DNA from: Planctomycetaceae bacterium
GTDB lineage: Bacteria > Planctomycetota > PLA2
Direction of reading: 5' to 3'
NCBI GenBank assembly: GCA_011525755.1
Contig: WYBS01000066.1
Coordinates: forward strand, 1 to 56,394
DNA: 56,394 nt
Part shown: piece by piece, positions 1-54,936 of the stretch
Layout of the letters: the number at the start of each line of letters is the position of its first letter
How positions within the stretch are numbered: the first letter of the stretch is position 1
Made by a program: the position numbers and the translations under genes
Notes under the pieces: generated by a model
Told to the model about the DNA's origin: nothing
The model's input: only the letters and a program-made list of their open reading frames with translations
Databases searched by the model: none

Positions 1-69
1 CCCGCGCCGGGGAGGTTGTCGAACTCGCCCCTCTCCTGCGCCTCGCGGATGATCCGGTCGATGTCGCGT

Positions 70-102
70 TTCATTGTACGGAGCCTGACACGATTCAATG
101 AA
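70..102. repeat. 33-bp AT-rich palindromic repeat, copy A (TTCATTGTACGGAGCCTGACACNNTTCAATGAA), just downstream of the stop of CDS 139-570
   Basis: Near-identical copies seen directly at 566-598 and 3797-3829, and inverted at 3872-3904. Terminal 7-bp inverted repeats TTCATTG/CAATGAA. About 45% GC in a 70% GC background. Confidence 0.8.
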
Positions 103-138
103 CCGCCGGGCTCCCGGCGTGGGCGTGTGCGTCGTGCC

Positions 139-570
139 TCATGTGCCCTTCAGTTCCTCGGCGATGGCGAGGAAGAGATCCTCGTAGTCCTCGCGGTCGG
201 AGACCGTGCGGTCGTTGTTCGGCTCGCGGCCCCCGCCCGCGTACTCGCGCGTGCGCACGAGGCCGAGCCGCACGCGCGCGCCGCCTTCGAGCCCGGGCTC
301 CACGACGACGTGCGCGAGTCGGTACCAGACGTCGATCACCCCCTCCTCGACCGGCGACTTCGCGGTGACGGACGCGCCGAGCGGGTCGGCGCGGACGACG
401 GTCCACCCCTTCGCGGCGAGCGTCGCGACGGCCGCGTGGTACGCCTGCTCGGCGGTGGCTTCGGGGAACGTGTGGACCCATGCGCCGTCGACCTCCCGGG
501 TGAGGTCGATCCTGCCGCTCGCCGCGCACGCCACCGCAAGGAGAAGCGGGATGAATCGCACGGGATTCAT
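139..570 (-). CDS. small secreted protein or lipoprotein, hypothetical
   Basis: ORF 139..594(-). A signal peptide (MNPVRFIPLLLAVACAASG) begins at the second Met. The start codon lies inside repeat copy B. Non-repetitive, protein-like composition. Confidence 0.55.
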   Translation of the reverse strand: MNPVRFIPLLLAVACAASGRIDLTREVDGAWVHTFPEATAEQAYHAAVATLAAKGWTVVRADPLGASVTAKSPVEEGVIDVWYRLAHVVVEPGLEGGARVRLGLVRTREYAGGGREPNNDRTVSDREDYEDLFLAIAEELKGT

Positions 571-598
571 TGTACGGAGCCTGACACCATTCAATGAA
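566..598. repeat. 33-bp palindromic repeat, copy B, spanning the start codon of CDS 139-570 and the stop of CDS 591-902
   Basis: Direct sequence identity to copy A except 2 nt. Confidence 0.8.
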
Positions 599-902
599 CG
601 GGGAGGAGCCCGCCGAGGATGCGGCTCCTCTGGAACGGGCTGCGGTCGAGCCAGGCGCGCGCGAACCTGTCAAAGTCGAGGCAGTGCGCGTCGCGCGCGC
701 GCGCGGCGAGGTACGCGACTCCCGCGTCCTCCGACCCGAGCCTCGCGCGCAGGATCGCGACGCGCCTCTCGTCCGGCAACTCCGTCCACTCGTCGGTAGC
801 GGCCTCCTCCTCGGCTGCCACGCGCCGGCGGATGTCCAGGTCGTCCGCATGCAGCCGTGCGGCAGCGAGGGCGACGCAGACGCGGACGAGCCGGATGCGC
901 AT
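591..902 (-). CDS. small secreted hypothetical protein
   Basis: ORF 591..950(-). An internal Met is followed by a signal-peptide-like segment (MRIRLVRVCVALAAARLHA). Acidic mature region. Confidence 0.4.
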   Translation of the reverse strand: MRIRLVRVCVALAAARLHADDLDIRRRVAAEEEAATDEWTELPDERRVAILRARLGSEDAGVAYLAARARDAHCLDFDRFARAWLDRSPFQRSRILGGLLPVH

Positions 903-976
903 GACTCGGGGGTGGCAGGATTCTAAACGCGGCCGCCCGGACTCCCGCATGGTGAAGTGAGGGGGCTCCGGGGGCC

Positions 977-3796
977 GTGCGGCACGTCATTCGCTGGGAT
1001 CGTTCGCCCGTGCGGCTCCGACTCCTTTTCCTCGTGCTCGCGTCCGCGCTGCCCGCGCTCGGGGAGGAGCCGTCGCGCGCGATCCGTGTCCGCGTGGTGA
1101 CGTTCGGCGGCGCGCCGGTAGCAGGCGCGCGCCTCGAGGTACGGCGGACCGTCACGGACCCCTACGACCCGATGTGGCCCGGGGCCGGGGCGCCGACCAC
1201 CGAGGCATGGTGGCGCGGGACCCCTGCCGGAGCCGACGACACGCTCGTTGCTGCGGCGGCGACGGACGACCAGGGCTGGGCGCGGATCGACGGCCTTCTG
1301 GACGGCGCGTTCGACGTGACGGCGCACGCGCCCGGGCTCGCCGTCCGCGGCGCCCAGGTACTCTCGCCGCCGGTCCGCGGCGCGCCCGCCCCGACGATCC
1401 TGCTCGACGCGGGCCACACGCTCCGTGGACGCGTGGTCTCCGAGGCCGGAGCGGCCATCGCCGGCGCGCTCGTCTTCGCGGAGTTCTCGTCCGCGGGCAT
1501 GGCACGCTGGTCCGACAGCGAGCGACCGCTCGTCGCACGCGCCGACGACAGGGGGGAGTTCCGGATCGACGGCGTCCCGGCGGGATCGGCGGTCCTTCAC
1601 GCCTGCCCGCCGGGCACGTGGTTCGCCCGAGACCATCTCGTCGACGCGCCGCGCGACGTGCCGGTGGAGATCGTGCTCTCGCTCCACGGCGTCGAGGCCG
1701 TCGTCAGGGACCTGCGTACGGGCGTCCCGGTCCCGGGCGCCAGCGTGTCGTTCTCGACGTACGGCTTCCACATGTCCAACATGCTTGTGCACGCAGTCAC
1801 GGGCGAGTCGGGGCGCTTCAGCCTCGCCGTTCCGGAGCGCTGGCTCGGTGCGGGCCAGATCGTGGCGCCCGGATACCTGCTTGGGCTTCGCCTCGGCGAG
1901 TCGATGGAGAACCCGCCGGACCTCGAGCGCCTCGCCGGACGGACGCTCGAGATCCGCGCGGTGCCGGGCGCTCGCGTCCGCGGCGTCGTGCGCGATCCCT
2001 CGGGGCCCGTCGCCTCCGCGATCGTGACCGCAACCTGGCTAGCGGGATTCGAGACGCCTTGCGTTTGGGAGCGGAGCGGGCCCGACGGCACCTTCGAGCT
2101 TTGGGCCTGGCCCGGCCTCCTGCACGTCGCCGCGCGGCCGCCGGGCGCGCCCGCGGAGGAGGACCAGGAACTCGATGTCCTGCTCGCGACCGGCAAGGCG
2201 GGCGAACGCGGGCTCGTCGATGTTCCCGGCGAGGGGCGCGACGGCATCGTCCTGTCGCTGCCCGCGCGGCCGCGCGGTGGCCGGATCACCGGGCGCGTCG
2301 TCACCACCGCCGGGGTGCCCGTGCGCGCGTGGCCCGGCATCGCGGGGGACAAGCGTCGCCGTGGCGCCGCGACCGGGATGGACGGCGCGTTCGATCTCGA
2401 GGGCGTCCCCGCGGGCGAGGCGAGGGTCGCGGTTCACGTCCAGGGCATCGGCGAGGTGAAGAGCGAACCCCTCCGGATCGAGGATGGCGGGACCACCCAC
2501 GTCGATCTGGTCGTCCCCGGCGAGCCGCTGGGGCGTGTGGAGGGGCGCGTGGTCGGCCGAGCGGGTCCCGCCTACGTCGTCGGGACGTTCGGGCGCCGCT
2601 TCCCGGTCGCTTCCGACGGGAGTTTCGCGTTCGACACGGAAGTGCTCGCCGGCGAGGTCTCGATCGATGTCGTCGGGCCCGACGGGTTGGAGGGCTCCGC
2701 GAAGGCGAAGTGCGCGAAGGGCGGGCGCGTGAACGTCGGCGAGATCCGGCTCGAGGAGCCCCGCTTCGCCGACTTCCGCGTGGTCGCCGAGGGCGGAGCG
2801 CCCGTCCCCGGCGCCACGGCATCGATCTACATCCCGCCGGATGCGATCTACTGCGGTGCTTTCGAGCTGCCGACCGACCTCGGCGTGCCTGCGGATCGCG
2901 AAGGCCGGATCCGGATTCGGTTACCGCGCGCCGAGCACTTCGACCTGAGGATCCGCGCCCCCGGCTTGTCGGGGCTCGACCTCTCGCATGGATTCGCACG
3001 CGACGTGGTCGTGCTGAAGCCGCTCGGGGCGATGGCGGGCCGCGTGCGCCTCGCCGACGGGACGCCGGCGGCGGGCTGCCGCATCGAGGCGTCCACGCGG
3101 TTCAAGGACGATGTCCCGTCCTACGAGCGCGAGGCGGTGGCGGACGCCAACGGGCGGTTCCGGATCGACGGCCTCGTCTCGGCCGGGCACGACGTCTTCA
3201 TCGAGTCGGGCGCGTCGGGGCCCTCGATCGCCCGGCTGAGAACCGAGGTGGTCGCGCCGGACGAGGCGCTCGACCTCGTCGTCGAGCGCGCGTCCGTCAT
3301 CGAGGGGCGCGTCGTGGACGCGCGCGAACGACCGGTAGCCGACATCGAGGTCACCGCGAGCCCGTGCCAGGACGGCCTCCCGGAGTTGGAGACGCGCACC
3401 GGCGCGGACGGCGGGTTCCGGCTCGCCGGCGCCGTCGCGGGCAAGTACGACCTGCGGGTGAGCCGCGACGGCCTGTGGCCGGACGGCAAGAGACGAGGCG
3501 TGGCCGCGGGCACGAGGGATCTCGTGCTGCGCGCCGAGATCGGCTACCGGATCACCGGGCGCCTCGTCGACGGCGACGGCAGCCCGCGGGCGGGCTGGGT
3601 CGTGGAGGCCGAGCGGAACGACCGGGGCGGGTGTCGCGACCACCGCGCCCGCACCGACCGGCTGGGCCGGTTCGTCCTCGAAGAGATGGAGGGAGGCCTG
3701 TGGAACCTGAAGGTCGGCAGGTGGGGCCATCTTGATCCCGAGTCCGGCGGGAGGGTCCGCGCCGGGTCCGAGGAGGTCGTGCTCGTCCTCCGGTGA
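977..3796 (+). CDS. large secreted protein built from about 9-10 tandem carboxypeptidase-regulatory-like (prealbumin/Ig-like) domains
   Basis: 939-aa ORF with a GTG start and an N-terminal hydrophobic segment (LRLLFLVLASALPALG). Recurrent ~90-aa units with G-R-V-V...G-x-P-x-A-G-A motifs and 'DGRFRIDGL'-type strands. Confidence 0.7.
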   Translation: MRHVIRWDRSPVRLRLLFLVLASALPALGEEPSRAIRVRVVTFGGAPVAGARLEVRRTVTDPYDPMWPGAGAPTTEAWWRGTPAGADDTLVAAAATDDQGWARIDGLLDGAFDVTAHAPGLAVRGAQVLSPPVRGAPAPTILLDAGHTLRGRVVSEAGAAIAGALVFAEFSSAGMARWSDSERPLVARADDRGEFRIDGVPAGSAVLHACPPGTWFARDHLVDAPRDVPVEIVLSLHGVEAVVRDLRTGVPVPGASVSFSTYGFHMSNMLVHAVTGESGRFSLAVPERWLGAGQIVAPGYLLGLRLGESMENPPDLERLAGRTLEIRAVPGARVRGVVRDPSGPVASAIVTATWLAGFETPCVWERSGPDGTFELWAWPGLLHVAARPPGAPAEEDQELDVLLATGKAGERGLVDVPGEGRDGIVLSLPARPRGGRITGRVVTTAGVPVRAWPGIAGDKRRRGAATGMDGAFDLEGVPAGEARVAVHVQGIGEVKSEPLRIEDGGTTHVDLVVPGEPLGRVEGRVVGRAGPAYVVGTFGRRFPVASDGSFAFDTEVLAGEVSIDVVGPDGLEGSAKAKCAKGGRVNVGEIRLEEPRFADFRVVAEGGAPVPGATASIYIPPDAIYCGAFELPTDLGVPADREGRIRIRLPRAEHFDLRIRAPGLSGLDLSHGFARDVVVLKPLGAMAGRVRLADGTPAAGCRIEASTRFKDDVPSYEREAVADANGRFRIDGLVSAGHDVFIESGASGPSIARLRTEVVAPDEALDLVVERASVIEGRVVDARERPVADIEVTASPCQDGLPELETRTGADGGFRLAGAVAGKYDLRVSRDGLWPDGKRRGVAAGTRDLVLRAEIGYRITGRLVDGDGSPRAGWVVEAERNDRGGCRDHRARTDRLGRFVLEEMEGGLWNLKVGRWGHLDPESGGRVRAGSEEVVLVLR

Positions 3797-3829
3797 CCTG
3801 TTGTACGGAGCCTGACACCATTCAATGAA
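3797..3829. repeat. 33-bp palindromic repeat, copy C, immediately after the stop of CDS 977-3796
   Basis: Sequence identity to copies A and B. Confidence 0.8.
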
Positions 3830-3871
3830 TAGTCGGTCTTCTGGGGCCGGCACCGGCCCAAGCTCCCCGGG

Positions 3872-3904
3872 TTCATTGAAACGTGTCAGGCTCCGTACAT
3901 TGAA
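3872..3904. repeat. 33-bp palindromic repeat, copy D. It is inverted relative to copy C, and the pair flanks a GC hairpin between convergent genes.
   Basis: The reverse complement matches copies A-C: TTCAATGTACGGAGCCTGACACGTTTCAATGAA. Confidence 0.8.
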
Positions 3905-3913
3905 ACGCCGTAC

Positions 3914-4723
3914 CTAGAACAGCCACTGCTTCATGCAGTAGACGCTGCCGCCCGACTTCAGGAACTCCCCCGTCTCGACCGGGTGGATCGTGAAACCCGC
4001 CTGCCGCAGCTTCTCCTCGAGCGCCGCGCTCCCGCGCTGGATCACCACGTGCTTCCCGGACGCGAGCGCGTTGCACGCGAAGCCGTCCCGCGCCTCCCGC
4101 TCGTCCGCTTCGATCACCCGCTTGAAGTTCCGGCGGATCAGCGTGTTCCCCGCCCGCGTGAACGCCTTCGGGTAGACGAGCGCCGTCTTCGGGTCGAGCG
4201 GGCAGAGGCACGTGTCGAGGTGGTAGAAGTCCGTCTTCAGTTCGAGCGTCAGCGTCTCGACGCCGAAGACGATCCCGAGGAAGGGGTACACCTCCGCGAC
4301 GGAGCGCTGGCCGTACCCGCCCCAGAGGATCCGCCTCCCCGGGTGCCACACCGCGTCGCCGCCTCCCTCGAAGAGCACCGGGCTCTCGATCACGTCGTAG
4401 CCGTGCTCCGAGAACCACCTGCGGTGCGCCTCGACCTCGCGCTGCCGCGACTCGTGCCGCATCCGCGAGAGGACGGCCACCTTCCTCCCGTGCCGGTTCA
4501 CGCCCGTGAACGACGGGTTCGCGCAAAAGACCATGTCCTCGCAGCCGGGCGTCGGCGGGAGCGTCTCGACCTCGAGCCCGATCCCCCGGAAGGTCTCCGC
4601 GAGCGCGTCCCACTGCTCGCGGGCGCGCGCGCGGTCGACCTTCCCGGCCTGCCCCTTCATGAAGACGTTCTTCACGTCGACCACGTCGAAGTGGTCGGGC
4701 GGGCAGAGGAGGACGCCCTTCAC
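3914..4723 (-). CDS. amidinotransferase-superfamily protein (dimethylarginine dimethylaminohydrolase / arginine deiminase-like)
   Basis: 269 aa. The FYHLDTCLCPL motif and a C-terminal GGSVYCM catalytic-Cys motif are typical of the DDAH/amidinotransferase fold. Confidence 0.75.
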   Translation of the reverse strand: MKGVLLCPPDHFDVVDVKNVFMKGQAGKVDRARAREQWDALAETFRGIGLEVETLPPTPGCEDMVFCANPSFTGVNRHGRKVAVLSRMRHESRQREVEAHRRWFSEHGYDVIESPVLFEGGGDAVWHPGRRILWGGYGQRSVAEVYPFLGIVFGVETLTLELKTDFYHLDTCLCPLDPKTALVYPKAFTRAGNTLIRRNFKRVIEADEREARDGFACNALASGKHVVIQRGSAALEEKLRQAGFTIHPVETGEFLKSGGSVYCMKQWLF

Positions 4724-8413: not shown

Positions 8414-8423
8414 GGGAAGGAGA

Positions 8424-8458
8424 GGGGGTCCGGGGGCCGCCGGCCCCCGGAGCCCCCC
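8424..8458. terminator. GC-rich inverted repeat downstream of CDS 7673-8413 (GGGGGTCCGGGGGCC/GGCCCCCGGAGCCCCC)
   Basis: Near-perfect inverted repeat starting 11 nt after the stop, followed by a T-containing tract. It is built from two inverted copies of the over-represented G5CTCCG5 motif. Confidence 0.4.
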
Positions 8459-22976: not shown

Positions 22977-24059
22977 ATGGCGTGGCGCTGGTTCCTGCTG
23001 TCCGTGGTCGCGGTCGCTGCGTGCGACGCCAAGCCGAAGGCGGCCCCCGGAGCCCCCTCGCCTGCCGCTCTCGTCGCCGGAAGCATCGAGACCATCGACG
23101 GCATCACCGTCGTCCGGGTGCGCGGCACGCCGAAGGAGATGGGGACCCAGGCGGGAACACTCCTCAAGGAGAAGATCCGGATCCTGCTCAGCGACTACCT
23201 CGGCGCCGTGCTGCCCGGGGACCGGTCGTTCCCGCTGCTCGCGGCGCGGCAGATGGAGGCGCACATCCCCGCGCGATACCGCGAGGAGATGAAGGCGCTC
23301 GCGGACGCCGCGGGCGTGCCGTACGACGACCTGCTCGTCGGCAACGTGATGGTCGAGCTCTTCCAGCAGTGCAGCACTGCGGTCGTCTCCGGCAAGCGCG
23401 CGGAAGGCGGCACGCTGCTCTTCGGGCGCAACCTCGACTTCCCGCCCGAGGGCATCCTCGAGAAGCACTCGGTCGTCATCGACTACGCGCCGGCGGAAGG
23501 GCGACGGTTCGTCGCCGTGACGTGGCCGGGGCTCGTCGGCGTGCTCTCGGGCATGAACCGCGACGGGCTATGCGTCGCGAACCTGCTCGCGGTCTCCGGG
23601 GACCAGTCGCTGGACGGGTGCCCGTACGCGTTCCTGCTGAGGGACGTGATGGAGGGCTCGGGAACCGTGGAGGATGCGCTCGCGATCCTCAAGAGGAGCC
23701 GCCGCACGACGGCCAACTCGATCATGCTCGCGGACGCGAAGGGCGCCGCGGTCGCGGAGACGACGCACGAGAGGATGGCCGTGCGCGAGATCGAGGACGA
23801 CCGCCTCTTCGCGACGAACGACTTCCGCGCGGACGGCGGCGTCCGCTGCGACCGCTACGACAAGCTCGCCGAGCTGGTCGCCGGCGCGAAGGCCCCGCTC
23901 GGCGCGAAGGACATGGAGCGGTTTCTCGACGAGGTCGATCTCGGCGCCATCAACGTCCAGTGCATGGTCTTCATCCCCGAGCGTCGCGAGCTGCGCGTCT
24001 CCCTCGGCCGGATCCCGGCGGCGAAGGGGCCGTTCGTCCCCCTCAGGCCCTGGGAGTGA
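22977..24059 (+). CDS. lipoprotein, peptidase C45 / acyl-CoA:6-APA acyltransferase-like Ntn hydrolase
   Basis: Lipobox VAVAAC. 'LFQQCSTAVV' with a candidate N-terminal nucleophile Cys. Overall AAT/C45-like length. Confidence 0.7.
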   Translation: MAWRWFLLSVVAVAACDAKPKAAPGAPSPAALVAGSIETIDGITVVRVRGTPKEMGTQAGTLLKEKIRILLSDYLGAVLPGDRSFPLLAARQMEAHIPARYREEMKALADAAGVPYDDLLVGNVMVELFQQCSTAVVSGKRAEGGTLLFGRNLDFPPEGILEKHSVVIDYAPAEGRRFVAVTWPGLVGVLSGMNRDGLCVANLLAVSGDQSLDGCPYAFLLRDVMEGSGTVEDALAILKRSRRTTANSIMLADAKGAAVAETTHERMAVREIEDDRLFATNDFRADGGVRCDRYDKLAELVAGAKAPLGAKDMERFLDEVDLGAINVQCMVFIPERRELRVSLGRIPAAKGPFVPLRPWE

Positions 24060-25584
24060 CCGGCAGCGACAGCACGAAGCGCGCGCCGCCGTCCGCGGGC
24101 GCCTCGTGCGCGAGGTCGCCGCCGAGGTCGCGCGCGAGGCCGCGCGAGAGCGCGAGCCCGAGGCCGAGCCCCCGCACCGGGTCCGCCTCGTCCCTCCCCG
24201 CGCGCTCGAACGGCCGGAAGAGCCGCGCCGTCCCCCGGACCCCCTCCCCATGATCCAAGACGGAGATCCGCGCGACGCCGCCGTCGACGGACGCCGCGAC
24301 CTCGATCGCCGACCGTCCGTACTTGCACGCGTTCTCGACGAGATTGAAGAGGACCTGCCCGACCGCCGCGGGGTCCGTGAAGAGCGTCGCCGGGGGCGCC
24401 TCGCCGATCGAGAGCGGAAGCCCCGCTCCCTCCGCGCACCGCCGGAGCGCCGGCGCCGCCTCCTCAAGGAGCGCCGCGAGAGTCACCTGCCGCGGCGAGA
24501 GCCCCGCGCGCCCTTCCTCGAGCCTCGCGTGCGCGATCACGTTCTCGACCATCCGCGCCATGCGCCCCGACTCCTGCCGCAGCGTGTCGTGGTAGAGCGC
24601 GCGCTTCTCCTCCTTCACGAGCCCCTGCGCGAGCAGGTCCGAATAGAGGCGGAACGTCGTCAGCGGCGAGCGCAGCTCGTGCGTGACGAGCGACGCGAAC
24701 CGGCGCTGCCGCACGCCGAAGTCCACGCTCTTCTTCAGGGCGAAGCCGAATCCCGCGACCGCGAGGAGCACCACGGCCCACGTCACGAGAAGCGCCGTGT
24801 GCGTCGCCGTCCAGTCATGAATCGAGGGGGCTCCGGGGGCCGCGGCCTCGAGGACCACGGGCAGCGTGAAGAGGCGGCGGTCGCTCGCCTCCTCGTCCGC
24901 CGCGGGCGCGAGCGCGGCGTCGGGGAAGAGATCGCGGATCTCACCGAGGAGCCGGCCCTCGAGCCTCGGCCAGTCGACGAGGAAGCCCTGGAGGCGGCTC
25001 CCGGCGCGGCGGACGAACACCAGATCGCGTCCCTGCCAGAGCGGCTCGAGGGAGCCCACCGCCGTGTCCTCGCCGGTCTTCTTCGCGTACGCCGCGACCT
25101 GCGCGCGCTGCTGCCACGCGTCGTCCTCCTTGAGCTGCCGGATCGCGACCGTCTGCGCCTCCGCCTCCTTCAGCCGCCCCGCGACATCGCCCTCGCCGAC
25201 GAGCCCCTGGATCTCGTTCAGCACGTTGCAGTTCATCATCAGCGTCTCGGCGGGGACCTTGTCGTTGACCTGCGGGGAGGTGAAGGTCCCGAGGGCGTCC
25301 ACCTGGAAGTGGAGCCGGATGAAGTCGGGCTTCTCGATCGGCGTCGCGTAGGCCTCGGGCGGCCGCTCGGCCTCGCGCCGGAGCATCTCGGAGAAGGCGC
25401 GGTCGAGGCGCCAAAGCGAGATCCGTAATTTTTTCTGGTACGCGGCCGCGTGCTTCGCCGCGGTCTCGCCGCGCTCGAGGTCGATCATCTTCCGGCTGAT
25501 CGCGGCCATGACGAGGAGGACCGCCGCGACGCCCAGCGCGAAGGCGATCCAGAGCTTCCTGCCCCCCGGCCCCCCCCGCTTCAT
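24043..25584 (-). CDS. sensor histidine kinase
   Basis: Two TM segments flanking a periplasmic domain. H-box 'LVTHELRSPLTT'. N/G boxes 'LFNLVENACKYG', 'DHGEGV', 'GLGLGLALS'. Confidence 0.85.
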   Translation of the reverse strand: MKRGGPGGRKLWIAFALGVAAVLLVMAAISRKMIDLERGETAAKHAAAYQKKLRISLWRLDRAFSEMLRREAERPPEAYATPIEKPDFIRLHFQVDALGTFTSPQVNDKVPAETLMMNCNVLNEIQGLVGEGDVAGRLKEAEAQTVAIRQLKEDDAWQQRAQVAAYAKKTGEDTAVGSLEPLWQGRDLVFVRRAGSRLQGFLVDWPRLEGRLLGEIRDLFPDAALAPAADEEASDRRLFTLPVVLEAAAPGAPSIHDWTATHTALLVTWAVVLLAVAGFGFALKKSVDFGVRQRRFASLVTHELRSPLTTFRLYSDLLAQGLVKEEKRALYHDTLRQESGRMARMVENVIAHARLEEGRAGLSPRQVTLAALLEEAAPALRRCAEGAGLPLSIGEAPPATLFTDPAAVGQVLFNLVENACKYGRSAIEVAASVDGGVARISVLDHGEGVRGTARLFRPFERAGRDEADPVRGLGLGLALSRGLARDLGGDLAHEAPADGGARFVLSLPVTPRA

Positions 25585-28749: not shown

Positions 28750-29105
28750 GGGAGCCGCAGCGCGAAGAAGAGGGTCAGCGCGATCGCGGGCGCCATCAGC
28801 GCGGGCGCCGCCCACGCGCCGCCCGAGAGCAGGGCCGTGAGAAGGCAGTAGAGCGTCGCGTACGCGACCCCGCCGGCCGTGAACCAGAGCGCGGGCCGCG
28901 CCCACGGCCGCTCTCGGCGAAGGCCCAAGGCCGCCGCGAACGACCCGCCGATGATGATCGCCGCGTCCGGCAGCGCGTACGCATGGAGGGTGAATGGGGG
29001 GGCTCCGGGGGCCACGAAGAGCGCGCGGAAGTCCGGCCACGCGAGCACAAGGACCCACCAGAGGATCCCGAGGACCCCCTGCACACACAGCCAGATGACG
29101 GCCAT
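28746..29105 (-). CDS. small integral membrane protein, hypothetical
   Basis: ~120 aa with three or four TM helices (MAVIWLCVQGVLGILWWVLVLAW…). The ATG overlaps the upstream stop. Confidence 0.55.
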   Translation of the reverse strand: MAVIWLCVQGVLGILWWVLVLAWPDFRALFVAPGAPPFTLHAYALPDAAIIIGGSFAAALGLRRERPWARPALWFTAGGVAYATLYCLLTALLSGGAWAAPALMAPAIALTLFFALRLP

Positions 29106-53144: not shown

Positions 53145-53277
53145 GGGGAAAGAGGGGGGCCGGGGGGGAGGTGCGTCCCGGATCGGGACGACCGGCGCGC
53201 GCAAGGGCTGTTTCCGCGGCCACGGCCGAGGCCGTGGCCCCCGGAGCCCCCCCGGTTCGCCCCCGGACGCGCCGCGC

Positions 53278-54936
53278 CTACGCCTTCGACGGGCGCCAGG
53301 CGCCGTCGACCACCTTCCTCGCGAACTCCTCGATCCGGGCGCCGAGATCCTTCGGCGTGAGGCCGAACGCGGTCTTGATGTCGGTCCCCTCGCGCTTCGC
53401 CGTGTAGTGGGCCGTCATGAAGTCGATGAGCTGCTGCCGGTACTTCCCGTTCTCGGCCCAGTAGAGGTAGTGGCAAGCCGCCGCGGACTGCTCGTAGAAG
53501 AGCCGCGCCTCGCCGAACGGCTGCGGGGTGATCCCCCACGGTTTTTTCGCCGTGGCGACGACGCCGGTCTTCGTCACCCACTCCCCCTGCGCCTTCGCCT
53601 GCGAGAGCCCGAAGAGCCTCTCCCAGTCGATCAGCTTGCCCTTGTCCCGCGAGATCGCCGCGACGACGCTGAGGCTGTTCGCGTGGGGCGCGAAGTGCGA
53701 CCACTTGTAGGTGTCGATGTCGTAGCTGCCCTCCTCGATGAAGGTGGCGAAGCCCTCGACGACCCAGTAGCCCGGCACGATGCCGCGGTTCTCGGCCGTC
53801 GAGAAGTCGCTCGCGTGCCAGCGCGGGTTCCTGCGCTCGATCCAGTGGTGGGTCAGCTCGTGCACGAACACGCGACGCACCTCGCGCGTCGCGTCCGGCG
53901 TCTCCGGCCAGAAGAAGCGCGAGACGTTGTCGCTCCGCGAGTAGACGCCGAGCGACATGCGGGCCATCGGGTTCCCGCCGAGGCTCTGCACGTACTCGTC
54001 CCGCGACTCGAAGAAGTAGATGACGAGCGGCTCGTTGTCGTCGCGCCTCGGGTTGTCCGTGGCGAAGATCTTCGCCAGCGCGCGGGAGGTGATCTTCGCG
54101 TACCGCACGCACTTGCCGAGGATCTCGGTGCGGTCGTCGATCGGCGTCAGGAAGACGATCTCCGCGCCCTCCTCCCGCGTCTCGACGCCGTTCAGGTCCT
54201 TGCGCCAGACGGTGCGGGCGCGCTGCATGTCCGGCGCGCGCCGGCCGAGCGGGCGCACCTCGCCGCGCAGCACGTCCACCTGCCAGTCGAGCCAGATGCG
54301 GCGCCCCTTGGCGGGATCCGGCCGGCCCTCCGCCGTGCTGCCGAAGGGGGGGTACTCCGGCGCGATCCCCTCGAGGATCGCGAGCGCGGCCTCGTTCTTC
54401 TCGTTCATCCGGAGCGCGGCGCGCAGCAGCTGCCAGCCGCGGTACTCGTGTCCCTCGCCTGCGTCGAGCTCCGCCTTCGCCCGCTTGCAGAGGAGGTCGG
54501 AGAGCACGATGCCCGCGTCGGGCGCGGCCCCCGGGGCCCCCTCCTTTCTCTCCGCGGAGAGCAGGCGCTTGTCCCAGTCGGCAGCCTCCTTCGCGGGAAG
54601 TCCCGACATGGCCGCGAGCACGAGCATCTCCCGCGCGGCATCGACGGCGCCCGCCGCGACGGCCTCGGGGAAGAGCTTCCGGCACAGCGCGAGCCGGTCC
54701 CGCACCGCGATCGCGCGGCACGCGTCGAGCTGCGCCTCGAACGACGGCGCGTGGAGCGCGAGGCCCTTGTCGTCCTCCCAGAGGAGGACCTCGTCGAGCG
54801 GCACGGCGCGGCCCGCGACCGTGAGCGACGCGTCGCCCTTCGCGACCGGGCCCTCGAGGATGGTCCGGTCGCGGAGCACGACCGTGTCCGCCGCGGCGAG
54901 CGCGGGGACGAGAAGCAGCGTCGCGAGGGTCCTCAT
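53278..54936 (-). CDS. secreted putative zinc metallopeptidase (HEXXH, DUF1570/MA-clan-like)
   Basis: Signal MRTLATLLLVPALAAA. 'VFVHELTHHW' HExxH motif plus a downstream Glu ('EGFATFIEEG'). Confidence 0.7.
   Translation of the reverse strand: MRTLATLLLVPALAAADTVVLRDRTILEGPVAKGDASLTVAGRAVPLDEVLLWEDDKGLALHAPSFEAQLDACRAIAVRDRLALCRKLFPEAVAAGAVDAAREMLVLAAMSGLPAKEAADWDKRLLSAERKEGAPGAAPDAGIVLSDLLCKRAKAELDAGEGHEYRGWQLLRAALRMNEKNEAALAILEGIAPEYPPFGSTAEGRPDPAKGRRIWLDWQVDVLRGEVRPLGRRAPDMQRARTVWRKDLNGVETREEGAEIVFLTPIDDRTEILGKCVRYAKITSRALAKIFATDNPRRDDNEPLVIYFFESRDEYVQSLGGNPMARMSLGVYSRSDNVSRFFWPETPDATREVRRVFVHELTHHWIERRNPRWHASDFSTAENRGIVPGYWVVEGFATFIEEGSYDIDTYKWSHFAPHANSLSVVAAISRDKGKLIDWERLFGLSQAKAQGEWVTKTGVVATAKKPWGITPQPFGEARLFYEQSAAACHYLYWAENGKYRQQLIDFMTAHYTAKREGTDIKTAFGLTPKDLGARIEEFARKVVDGAWRPSKA

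What the first reader, a model, noticed from the sequence alone, without database searches (positions are those of the whole stretch)
70..3904. Four copies of a 33-bp AT-rich palindromic element clustered in 4 kb, including an inverted pair forming a compound hairpin between convergent genes
The consensus is TTCATTGTACGGAGCCTGACAC[C/G][A/T]TTCAATGAA, with 7-bp terminal inverted repeats. Copies sit at 70-102, 566-598 and 3797-3829, plus one in reverse at 3872-3904. It is about 45% GC in a 70% GC genome.

Copies A and B bracket one small secreted-protein gene. Copy B contains that gene's ATG and abuts the stop of the next small gene. Copies C and D lie head-to-head, 42 bp apart, around a GC hairpin at about 3845-3862. 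They sit exactly between the convergent 939-aa carboxypeptidase-regulatory-like-domain protein and the DDAH-like gene.

This looks like a REP/MITE-like or regulatory palindromic element, not coding sequence. The repeat is translated in three different spurious ORFs.
Basis: seen in the sequence. Interest (0 to 1): 0.55.

Follow-up and report, generated by a model that had tools for sequence, protein, structure and literature searches.

The report
Transposase-linked short repeats in Planctomycetota
The four 33-bp repeats are real copies of a small dispersed DNA element; in related bacteria the same element forms the inverted repeats flanking a RayT-type (REP-associated) tyrosine transposase gene, so this is a new sequence family of an already known kind of selfish repeat.

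Summary
Four copies share an exact 16-nt core, GTACGGAGCCTGACAC, at 70-102, 566-598, 3797-3829 (all +) and 3872-3904 (-). None is expected by chance, and there are none elsewhere in the 56 kb.

The element is dispersed. It occurs on several contigs of two Planctomycetota MAGs and on about 18 metagenome contigs, as singles, tandem copies and inverted doublets. It lies between genes and often abuts a stop or start codon.

In three independent loci (L011, L046, L054) two inverted copies flank a 328-333-aa Y1/HUH transposase gene. This gene scores above the Pfam Y1_Tnp cut-off, and its best solved relative is E. coli TnpA_REP. More distant homologues are flanked by related but different inverted repeats in the same geometry. 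One such transposase (P0045) co-occurs in three sequencing runs with the window's own proteins.

- Copy A is a lineage-specific insertion; five relatives have the empty site.
- Copies B and D are old orthologous copies whose core has stayed invariant (P about 1e-6 under neutrality).
- C and D form a REPIN-like doublet.

Closest known: REP/RAYT and especially TIRYT/TIRtron repeat families. This is a new member of a known kind, of modest interest. Mobilisation by the transposase is inferred, not shown.

The parts
70..102 (+). Copy A (TTCATT GTACGGAGCCTGACAC GA TTCAATGAA). It lies between the stop of the lipoprotein gene and the start of the DJC28-domain gene, antisense to both.
   Evidence: Exact match. 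Absent at the orthologous site in five related lineages.
74..129 (+). 56-nt block that is extra in the window relative to relatives. It comprises most of copy A, a GC hairpin (CGCCGGG-CT-CCCGGCG, 105-120) and a tail. It is followed by 130-141 (CGTCGTGCCTCA), which resembles 63-73 (GTCGCGTTTCA).
   Evidence: Six-lineage alignment of the gene2/gene1 junction; sequence. The flanking duplication is not significant once the obligatory stop codon is discounted (own estimate, p about 0.09).
566..598 (+). Copy B. It contains the TGA stop (591-593) of truncated gene3 and sits 6-7 nt upstream of the conserved GTG start of the lipoprotein gene.
   Evidence: An orthologous copy is present in all six lineages compared, with a canonical core in four.
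3797..3829 (+). Copy C, with a degenerate left arm. It starts directly after the TGA of the 939-aa gene and is the left half of the doublet.
   Evidence: The breakpoint of the 2.8-kb segment missing from L003 falls in its left arm.
3830..3871 (.). 42-bp spacer of the doublet, with a GC hairpin (GGGCCGG-CA-CCGGCCC). The spacer is about 84% identical to the sequence that follows an unrelated copy upstream of clpP in another MAG (L005).
   Evidence: fold; L005 1428-1497 against window 3904-3839.
3872..3904 (-). Copy D, 9 nt downstream of the TAG of the DDAH-like gene. It is the right half of the doublet.
   Evidence: An orthologous copy with an invariant core is present in five lineages.
3905..3913 (-). 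GTACGGCGT, a partial extra core start between the DDAH stop codon and copy D. It is absent in L003.

Best explanation
The 33-bp units are non-autonomous copies of a short dispersed repeat family. This family is the cognate inverted repeat of a RayT/TIRYT-type single-strand DNA (Y1, HUH) tyrosine transposase found in an uncultured, high-GC Planctomycetota lineage.

**Shown**
- The repeat is dispersed, extragenic and occurs in both orientations relative to genes.
- It occurs as singles, tandem copies and inverted doublets.
- In three independent loci two inverted copies, right arms facing inward, bracket the transposase gene. The upstream copy lies 65-82 nt before the ATG. The downstream copy overlaps the stop codon.
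- More distant homologues of the transposase carry different but related inverted repeats in the same geometry.
- Copy A is present only in the window's species.

**Inferred**
- The transposase, encoded elsewhere in this genome (probably P0045), recognises the invariant asymmetric core, with the arms as a weak stem or as pairing with the partner copy. It copies or moves units and doublets in trans through single-stranded intermediates, as proposed for REP/REPIN-RAYT systems.
- The C/D doublet has the same orientation as the repeats around the gene. It is therefore either a REPIN-like unit or an internally deleted transposase locus.
- Direct copies (B and C) then act as recombination substrates. 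This would explain why the genes between the DDAH-like gene and the lipoprotein gene differ between relatives exactly at element boundaries.
- Transcribed doublets form a very stable RNA hairpin between convergent genes. This is a likely side effect on transcript ends, not the reason the element exists.
For: 1. **Repeat is real and non-random:**
2. **Dispersal.**
   - The genome scan found it on 6 contigs of two Planctomycetota MAGs only. One MAG (SMAG_U1411) has at least 8 canonical copies on 6 contigs.
   - The metagenome scan gave 22 contigs, about 18 with arms. General consensus: T[TC]CGTT GTACGGAGCCTGACAC NN TTCAACGAA.
3. **Arrangement.**
   - Seven inverted doublets all have right arms inward: window C/D, L003, L012, L016, L019, L021, L022.
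   - Tandem copies occur in L005, L023 and L024.
4. **Transposase link.**
   - L011 carries inverted canonical copies at 706-738 (+) and 1804-1836 (-) around a 333-aa ORF.
   - That ORF hits Pfam Y1_Tnp at 24.2 bits (cut-off 23). Its best NCBIfam model is the REP-associated tyrosine transposase, at 48 bits, below the cut-off of 80.
   - L046 (protein P0045) and L054 (P0046) have the same architecture, with canonical repeats of 19-27 score.
   - In an alignment of 26 homologues the HUH histidines (H60, H62) and the Y119-I-D-x-N motif are invariant.
   - The best PDB hit of the profile is 4ER8, E. coli TnpA_REP.
5. **Co-variation of protein and repeat.** Homologues at 51-57% identity (L041, L043, L055, L056) are flanked by different inverted repeats that still start with GTAC(G/C)G, in the same geometry.
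6. **Same genome as the window?** The exact P0045 protein and the window's exact lipoprotein P0001 are both found in runs SRR10810250, SRR14787578 and SRR31893987. Seven assemblies break exactly inside the upstream repeat, as expected for a multi-copy sequence.
7. **Mobility.** The A site is empty (overlapping ATGA/GTGA stop-start) in L003, L036, L039, L037 and L016, and filled only in the window species. A 71-nt unit (33-mer plus spacer) is shared between unrelated loci in different genomes.
8. **Gene turnover bounded by copies.** The 939-aa gene and gene3 are present, absent or decayed between D/C and B in six lineages.
Against: - No transposase gene lies in the 56-kb window. Its presence in this genome rests on sample co-occurrence only.
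- The single unit is a poor hairpin (-4 kcal/mol, z = -2). It lacks the GTAG or CGTC tag of classical REPs and the GGGGWSAS motif of most described TIRYT repeats.
- Copy number appears low to moderate, not the hundreds typical of REPs. It could not be counted in a complete genome.
- Orthologous copies B and D have kept an identical 16-nt core across lineages in which only 43-47% of fourfold sites of the neighbouring gene are invariant (P about 1e-6). A purely selfish, decaying element would not do this without gene conversion or host-level selection.
- The A insertion is flanked by an imperfect 11-nt duplication, which Y1 transposases are not expected to make. The duplication is not statistically convincing.
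- No biochemical or population evidence of transposition is available.
Confidence: 0.8

Rival explanations
1. The element is a cis-regulatory site (an operator or promoter element) of the host. For example, it could be an outward-facing -10-like TACAAT that drives leaderless transcripts of the gene next to the left arm, or a binding site of a transcription factor.
For: - Copy B is kept at the orthologous position just upstream of the lipoprotein gene in all six lineages. TA[C/G]AAT lies 6-7 nt before the conserved GTG even in the two lineages where the rest of the element has changed.
- In L005 TACAAT lies 7 nt before the clpP ATG.
- The cores of orthologous B and D copies are invariant beyond neutral expectation.
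- In 9 of 39 copies the left arm abuts a start codon on the opposite strand.
Against: - At least 14 of 39 copies sit directly after a stop codon, pointing into the 3' end of a gene. Many lie between convergent genes, so there is no fixed orientation relative to transcription.
- The majority consensus gives TACAAC, not TACAAT.
- The sigma-70 scan finds nothing in 1-4300.
- Neighbouring genes share no functional theme.
- This reading does not explain why the same sequence brackets a transposase gene in three loci.
Confidence: 0.1
2. The element is a MITE derived from a conventional (DDE) insertion sequence. C/D would be the complete 108-bp element with 33-bp terminal inverted repeats, and the single copies would be decayed halves.
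For: - C/D has the form TIR-spacer-TIR and folds strongly.
- Doublets of 87-131 bp recur.
- An imperfect 11-nt direct repeat flanks the A insertion.
Against: - No DDE transposase was seen next to any of about 45 copies.
- The only gene bracketed by the repeats is a Y1/HUH transposase.
- Doublet spacers are not homologous between loci, apart from window/L005.
- Tandem and single copies are as common as doublets.
- The A insertion carries one copy only, and its flanking duplication is not significant.
Confidence: 0.05
3. The element is functional at the RNA level: a transcript-end hairpin (terminator, stabiliser or RNase site) or a protein- or sRNA-binding motif in 3' UTRs.
For: - Most copies lie within 0-20 nt after a stop codon in sense orientation.
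- The doublet RNA folds at -71 and -69 kcal/mol on the two strands (z = -8.9 and -7.0). The D/B doublet of L037 folds at -50 kcal/mol.
- The arms show modest covariation.
- In L027 the element sits between a stop codon and a canonical hairpin-plus-T-run terminator.
Against: - Both orientations relative to transcription occur.
- Single units fold weakly.
- No U-tract follows the doublet and no terminator-like site was scored.
- There is no Rfam match.
- This could be a secondary effect of a transposase-spread repeat rather than a rival origin.
Confidence: 0.05

Closest known systems
TIRtrons / TIRYT (TIR-associated tyrosine transposases) and their 'moderately abundant' TIR repeat families (Di Nocera et al. 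2013, PMC3733652). These correspond to TnpA_Y1 subclass 2.1, which has a C-terminal DnaA_C/HTH-like domain (Quentin et al. 2018, PMC6006769).
   Same: - A RAYT-like Y1/HUH protein of about 330 aa with a C-terminal HTH-like extension.
- The gene is bracketed by inverted repeats that are not classical REP hairpins. One repeat overlaps the 3' end of the gene.
- The same repeats are scattered in the genome in moderate numbers as singles, dimers and clusters.
- Such families were reported in a planctomycete (R. baltica).
   Different: - The repeat sequence is new (no literature hit) and lacks the GGGGWSAS motif shared by most described TIRs.
- It has an invariant 16-nt asymmetric core between AT-rich 7-bp arms.
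- Orthologous copies are conserved across species.
- Assignment of the protein to subclass 2.1 was not tested phylogenetically. The HTH hits are weak: Sigma70_r4_2 E = 0.003, DnaA domain E = 0.17.
REP / BIME / REPIN elements with RAYT (TnpA_REP) in REPtrons (Nunvar 2010; Bertels & Rainey 2011; Ton-Hoang 2012; Messing 2012, PDB 4ER8). Cited from my own knowledge and as cited.
   Same: - Short (about 33 bp) extragenic repeats, mostly just downstream of genes.
- Inverted doublets that form long hairpins.
- A single-copy Y1 transposase gene flanked by inverted copies and held at a syntenic locus in related genomes.
   Different: - No GTAG or CGTC tag (GTAC instead).
- The unit is not a stable GC-rich hairpin.
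- Copy number seems much lower.
- The protein scores below the NCBIfam RayT cut-off (48 against 80 bits).
Bacterial MITEs such as Correia/NEMIS, RUP and ERIC
   Same: A roughly 100-bp TIR-spacer-TIR unit between genes that is transcribed into a hairpin.
   Different: The associated enzyme is a Y1/HUH transposase, not a DDE one. There is no consistent target-site duplication. Single and tandem units are common.

Membership tests
REP/REPIN-RAYT system | Short (20-40 bp) repeat, extragenic, several copies per genome | tested here: met
   All four copies in the window are intergenic. SMAG_U1411 carries at least 8 canonical copies on 6 contigs. Total copy number per genome could not be counted.
REP/REPIN-RAYT system | Each unit is an imperfect palindrome that forms a stable stem-loop | tested here: inconclusive
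   Only the 7-bp arms pair: -4 kcal/mol, z = -2.0. Across 41 copies the arms are 82.6% paired, with 16 double changes against 7.7 in shuffles. The 16-nt core is not self-complementary.
REP/REPIN-RAYT system | Conserved unpaired GTAG (or CGTC) tetranucleotide at one end | tested here: not met
   The invariant tetranucleotide next to the left arm is GTAC. No GTAG or CGTC is present.
REP/REPIN-RAYT system | A Y1/HUH transposase gene flanked by inverted copies of the repeat (REPtron) | tested here: met
   Met in L011, L046 and L054. These are relatives or the probable same population, not the window itself.
REP/REPIN-RAYT system | Inverted doublets (REPINs) as a frequent arrangement | tested here: met
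   Seven doublets, all with right arms inward. C/D folds at -39.5 kcal/mol as DNA and -71 kcal/mol as RNA.
REP/REPIN-RAYT system | The transposase binds and cleaves the repeat as single-stranded DNA | not testable with these tools
   Needs biochemistry.
TIRtron/TIRYT (TnpA_Y1 subclass 2.1) | RAYT homologue with HUH and catalytic Tyr motifs | tested here: met
   Pfam Y1_Tnp is above the cut-off. H60, H62 and Y119 are invariant in 26 homologues. The best PDB match is 4ER8, with both motifs aligned.
TIRtron/TIRYT (TnpA_Y1 subclass 2.1) | C-terminal DnaA_C / HTH_23 / HTH_28-like DNA-binding domain | tested here: inconclusive
   Only weak hits: Sigma70_r4_2 E = 0.0028, below the cut-off, and DnaA domain IV (3PVP) E = 0.17. 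No structure was predicted.
TIRtron/TIRYT (TnpA_Y1 subclass 2.1) | Gene flanked by terminal inverted repeats rather than REP hairpins, often overlapping the gene's 3' end | tested here: met
   Seven loci show this. The upstream repeat lies 65-91 nt before the start codon. The downstream repeat overlaps the stop codon in L046, L054 and L056 (inner end -6 to -8 nt past the stop-codon end) and by the TGA in L011.
TIRtron/TIRYT (TnpA_Y1 subclass 2.1) | TIR shares the GGGGWSAS motif (the majority of described cases) | tested here: not met
   The motif is not in the 33-mer. A GTGACACC motif lies between the upstream repeat and the start codon in some loci.
TIRtron/TIRYT (TnpA_Y1 subclass 2.1) | TIR copies form a moderately abundant dispersed family (singles, dimers, clusters) | tested here: met
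MITE of a DDE insertion sequence | Regular target-site duplication and a parent IS with the same TIRs that encodes a DDE transposase | tested here: not met
   Only one filled/empty pair is available. Its 11-nt flanking similarity is 8/11 and includes an obligatory stop codon. No DDE gene lies next to any copy, and the only bracketed gene is Y1_Tnp.
Integron attC / Xer dif-like recombination site | attC: RYYYAAC...GTTRRRY, 55-140 bp. dif: 11-6-11 bp with a nearby tyrosine recombinase | tested here: not met
   The arms have the opposite polarity (GTTG...CAAC), the unit is 33 bp long, and a 19-nt conserved centre separates the arms. No integrase lies in the neighbourhood.
Intrinsic terminator | GC-rich hairpin followed by a T-run | tested here: not met
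   0 sites in 1-4300. No T-run follows the doublet on either strand.

The most novel reading that the evidence does not exclude
The copies are no longer merely selfish. The invariant 16-nt core at orthologous sites (B and D, P about 1e-6) could mean that the RayT-like protein, through its C-terminal HTH domain, binds these sites as double-stranded DNA. The sites would then serve the host, either as regulatory or insulator sites at gene boundaries, or as recombination sites. In the second case they would drive cassette-like gain and loss of the genes between the DDAH-like gene and the lipoprotein gene. That would be a Y1-transposase-based gene-exchange hotspot, analogous in outcome to integron or pdif modules.
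Probability: 0.12. Interest if true: 0.6.

Novelty: new member of a known kind. Interest (0 to 1): 0.3.

Why it matters
- **Annotation.** It explains an odd AT-rich repeat and three spurious ORFs in a 72%-GC genome, so these stretches should be masked as repeats rather than called as coding sequence.
- **A documented example.** It adds a case from an uncultured Planctomycetota lineage of a RayT/TIRYT-type transposase with a clearly identifiable cognate repeat family. For the HTH-carrying subclass 2.1, Quentin et al. reported no REP-like sequences near the gene, only the terminal inverted repeats of Di Nocera's TIRYTs.
- **A small system for study.** The material is compact: an invariant 16-nt core, covarying arms, two paralogous transposase loci with different repeats, one recent insertion, and old orthologous copies. 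It could be used to ask how such proteins recognise their DNA and how the repeats persist.
- **Limits.** It does not open a new category of biology.

Tried and rejected
- **Rfam.** A search of 1-4300 at E up to 10 returned only weak chance hits such as CRISPR-DR and miRNA models.
- **Literature.** A search for the core sequence found no paper.
- **Sigma-70 promoter or intrinsic terminator.** The scan found none. I also compared the sequence by eye with sigma-54, ECF, LexA, Fur, CIRCE, IHF, hix/res and loxP-type sites. None fits in spacing or sequence. This rests on my own knowledge and is not a formal test.
- **Integron attC or dif/pdif module.** I considered this because copies bracket single genes. 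It is rejected on arm polarity, length, the conserved 19-nt centre and the absence of an integrase.
- **Relation between the 939-aa gene and the long form of gene3 in L003.** BLASTP shows no real similarity, so an inversion is rejected.
- **Viral origin.** The four viral-contig matches are chance hits in 42-46% GC contigs without arms. L009, L010 and L020 from the metagenome scan are likewise chance hits.
- **Strand-specific wobble pattern in the arms,** which would reveal which strand folds. Both G:T and A:C mismatches occur, so this is uninformative.
- **My own crude gene caller.** It was unreliable for neighbour statistics. I replaced it with a stricter boundary test, which still undercounts.
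- **Target-site duplication at A.** It looked attractive at first (8/11, 9/11 and 10/11 matches), but it is not significant once the required stop codon is removed.
- **NCBI record of P0045.** The 26.7-kb contig could not be retrieved, so I could not prove that P0045 and the window come from one assembly.

Full report
**1. The observation**

- The 33-mer consensus matches at 70-102 (+), 566-598 (+) and 3872-3904 (-) with at most 1 mismatch, where no match is expected by chance.
- A 17-nt core (TGTACGGAGCCTGACAC) is exact at all four claimed places, including 3802-3818. Expected 0.11; 0 of 100 shuffles reach 4.
- Copy C (3797-3829) has a degenerate left arm (CCTGTTG).
- No other copy or arm-only variant exists in the remaining 52 kb.
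- The unit is 42% GC in a window of 67-76% GC.
  - A minus-strand run of genes: gene3 (902 to 591), a lipoprotein-like gene2 (570 to 139), and a DJC28-domain gene1 (74 to off the window end).
  - A plus-strand 939-aa CarboxypepD_reg protein (977-3796).
  - A minus-strand DDAH-like gene (4723 to 3914).
- Seven independent assemblies of the same species show the same four copies, so this is not an assembly artefact.
- One detail needs correcting. The ATG inside copy B is probably not the start of gene2. It is out of frame in relatives, whereas a GTG 9 nt downstream is conserved.

**2. The element is dispersed**

- A scan of one genome per species (185,579 species) found the core plus part of the right arm on six contigs. 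All belong to two Planctomycetota MAGs.
- One of these MAGs (SMAG_U1411) carries at least eight canonical copies on six contigs.
- A metagenome scan gave 22 contigs. About 18 of them (66-72% GC) carry the arms as well. The three low-GC hits lack arms and are chance matches.
- The general consensus is T[TC]CGTT GTACGGAGCCTGACAC NN TTCAACGAA. The window's clade uses ATTG/CAAT instead of GTTG/CAAC.
- Because the scans required the core, its invariance across loci is partly built in. Within the window it is not, since 3 mismatches were allowed.
- Across 41 distinct copies the 7-bp arms are 82.6% paired, with 16 double (compensatory) changes against 7.7 in shuffles (0 of 500 shuffles reach this). 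The complementarity is therefore maintained, but modestly.
- A single unit folds weakly (-4 kcal/mol, z = -2).
- Copies occur in three arrangements.
  - Singles.
  - Tandem copies (L005, L023, L024).
  - Inverted doublets: seven cases, always with the right arms facing each other.
- The left arm usually lies within 0-20 nt of a gene boundary. This is a stop codon on the same strand in at least 14 of 39 copies, or a start codon on the opposite strand in 9 of 39 (an undercount). Orientation relative to transcription is therefore not fixed.

**3. The decisive link**

- On metagenome contig L011, two inverted canonical copies (706-738 + and 1804-1836 -) bracket a 333-aa ORF that begins MARRPRIDFPGAWHHVTNRG.
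- This ORF scores above the Pfam cut-off for Y1_Tnp (24.2 against 23 bits). Its best NCBIfam model is the REP-associated tyrosine transposase, at 48 bits, below the cut-off of 80, so it is a distant relative.
- A database search found 386 homologues at E up to 1e-10. Many are named 'REP element-mobilizing transposase RayT' by their source.
- In an alignment of 26 homologues the HUH histidines (H60, H62) and the Y119-I-D-x-N tyrosine motif are invariant.
- The best solved relative of the profile is E. coli TnpA_REP (4ER8), with both motifs aligned. The C-terminal third gives only weak DnaA-domain-IV and sigma-region-4 HTH hits.
- Two further homologues at about 60% identity have the same architecture with the canonical repeat: P0045 (L046 and seven other assemblies) and P0046 (L054). 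The upstream copy lies 65-82 nt before the ATG. The downstream copy overlaps the stop codon (CGT TGA inside the right arm).
- Homologues at 51-57% identity (L041, L043, L055, L056) are bracketed in the same geometry by different inverted repeats that still begin with GTAC(G/C)G, for example GGTACGGTGCCAGGC. Protein and repeat have therefore diverged together.
- These genes occupy two syntenically conserved loci, as is typical of RAYTs.
  - Locus I lies beside the 2-oxoacid dehydrogenase and PMT genes.
  - Locus II lies beside an acetyltransferase and an ABC transporter.

**4. Is the transposase in the window's genome?**

- The window itself has none.
- The exact P0045 sequence and the window's exact gene2 product (P0001) are both found in runs SRR10810250, SRR14787578 and SRR31893987, and in neighbouring runs of the same series.
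- Both proteins are also held in an unannotated NCBI assembly.
- The P0045 repeats use the window's arm type (TTCATT...TTCAATGAA).
- Seven short-read assemblies break exactly inside the upstream repeat, as expected for a multi-copy sequence.
- This makes co-residence likely, but it is not proven.

**5. History of the four copies**

The backbone LpxD, DDAH-like gene, [variable segment], gene2, gene1, PEPCK is shared by six lineages whose DDAH genes are 79-89% identical to the window's or L003's in pairwise BLASTN.

- **Copy A.**
  - It is present only in the window's species. In L003, L036, L039, L037 and L016 the gene2 stop and gene1 start overlap (ATGA or GTGA).
  - The window has an extra 56-nt block (74-129) that holds the element and a GC hairpin.
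  - The block is followed by 12 nt that resemble the 11 nt on the other side. Once the obligatory stop codon is set aside this is 5 of 8 matches (my estimate, p about 0.09), so a target-site duplication is not established.
  - An alternative reading fits a Y1 mechanism: insertion 3' of a native TTCA by a unit that itself ends in CTCA. This is speculative.
- **Copy B.** It is present at the orthologous position in all six lineages. The core is canonical in four. L003 and L039 share a variant (GGTGGCCCGCTCCGTA[C/G]AAT).
- **Copy D.** It follows the DDAH stop codon in five lineages, often without its left arm. It is absent from L039/L040, as is C.
- **Doublet partners.** In L037 and L016, D and B themselves form the doublet.
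- **Genes between the copies.**
  - The window has the 939-aa gene plus a 103-aa remnant of gene3.
  - L003 and L039 have an intact gene3 of 720-750 aa.
  - L036 has decayed pieces of the 939-aa gene.
  - The breakpoint of the 2.8-kb segment lies in the left arm of C.
  - Recombination between the direct copies B and C would convert the window's layout into that of L037 and L016. The direction of change cannot be told.
- **A longer dispersed unit.** A 71-nt stretch (copy D plus spacer) is 84.5% identical to a copy upstream of clpP in another genome. Units longer than 33 nt are therefore also dispersed.

**6. Constraint**

- Only 43-47% of fourfold-degenerate sites of the adjacent DDAH gene are invariant across these lineages.
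- Even so, the 16-nt cores of orthologous D (five lineages) and B (four lineages) are identical. The probability under neutrality is about 1.5e-6 and 5.7e-6.
- Arms, the NN positions and flanks do drift.
- The core is therefore held by selection, by gene conversion among copies, or by repeated replacement. This does not fit a simply decaying relic.

**7. Mechanism**

*Shown:* the repeat family exists and is dispersed; it is physically linked to a Y1/HUH transposase in a REPtron/TIRtron layout; protein and repeat co-vary; one insertion is lineage-specific; gene-content differences are bounded by copies.

*Inferred, by analogy with TnpA_REP and IS200/IS605 enzymes (my own knowledge):*
- The protein recognises the core in single-stranded DNA and spreads units and doublets in trans.
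- Doublets are the REPIN-like replicative form or deletion derivatives of the transposase locus.
- Transcribed doublets form a very stable hairpin: -71 and -69 kcal/mol for C/D on the two strands, and -50 kcal/mol for the D/B doublet of L037. This may affect transcript ends, although no terminator-like or sigma-70-like site is scored.

**8. Comparison with known systems**

- The closest description is the TIRtron/TIRYT class of Di Nocera et al. 2013. These are RAYT homologues flanked by terminal inverted repeats rather than GTAG-tagged hairpins. Their repeat families are 'moderately abundant', occur as singles, dimers and clusters, and were reported in the planctomycete R. baltica among others.
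- Quentin et al. 2018 equate this class with TnpA_Y1 subclass 2.1, which carries DnaA_C/HTH-like C-termini.
- The present family differs in three ways.
  - Its sequence is new: there is no literature hit, no GGGGWSAS motif and no GTAG tag.
  - It has AT-rich arms around an invariant asymmetric core.
  - Orthologous copies are conserved across species.
- It is a new member of a known kind.

**9. Rivals**

- **Host operator or promoter.** This has some support for copy B and the clpP copy (TACAAT 6-7 nt before the start codon). It cannot explain copies after stop codons, copies between convergent genes, or the transposase link.
- **DDE-type MITE.** It lacks a parent element and a consistent duplication.
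- **Purely RNA-level element.** This is contradicted by the mixed orientation.
- **Integron attC or dif-like sites.** They fail on structure.
- **Viral origin.** It is excluded.

**10. Verdict**

Interest is modest. The open points are the unexplained invariance of old copies and the role of the elements in local gene turnover.

Noticed in passing
window 961-977, 8423-8457, 23041-23057, 24826-24842, 28998-29014, 53235-53251, 54525-54541 and others: A second dispersed, GC-rich motif, GGGGGCTCCGGGGGCCG, is present. It has 4 exact copies (961, 8441, 23041, 24826) and 24 hits at up to 3 mismatches, against 3.3 expected. At 8423-8457 two copies form an inverted pair right after a TAG stop. One copy sits just 5' of the start of the 939-aa gene. 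The motif also lies next to copy B in L036 and copy C' in L003. It shares CGGAGCC with the 33-mer core and may be a second REP-like family.
   Followed up: partly
window 591-902 (minus): gene3 (103 aa) is an internally deleted remnant of a 720-750-aa protein with no Pfam match. The intact protein is present in L003 (2176-4335) and L039 (3781-5961). About 1.84 kb is missing from the window's copy.
   Followed up: partly
window 977-3796; L036 5207-5912: The 939-aa CarboxypepD_reg gene is intact only in the window's species. L036 carries two small ORFs that are decayed pieces of it. L003, L016, L037 and L039 lack it.
   Followed up: partly
L041 about 2425-2465; L043 about 3955-4000; L055 about 2955-3000: Between the upstream inverted repeat and the RayT start codon there is a conserved GTGACACC motif, followed by a CCTCC...GGAGG hairpin that includes the ribosome-binding site. 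GTGACACC resembles the CTGACACC end of the repeat core and could be an autoregulatory site.
   Followed up: no
L036 5183-5215: The partner of copy D in SMAG_U1411 is a hybrid unit. It has canonical arms around a GGTGCCTGGCAC centre, which is the palindromic core type that flanks the paralogous RayT genes (L043, L055). The two repeat families therefore mix at one site.
   Followed up: no
L037 2952-3586; L011 300-704: PIN/VapC-type toxin genes (with a VapB antitoxin in L037) lie near element-bearing loci. In L011 the PIN gene's stop codon is 1 nt from the upstream repeat of the transposase locus.
   Followed up: no
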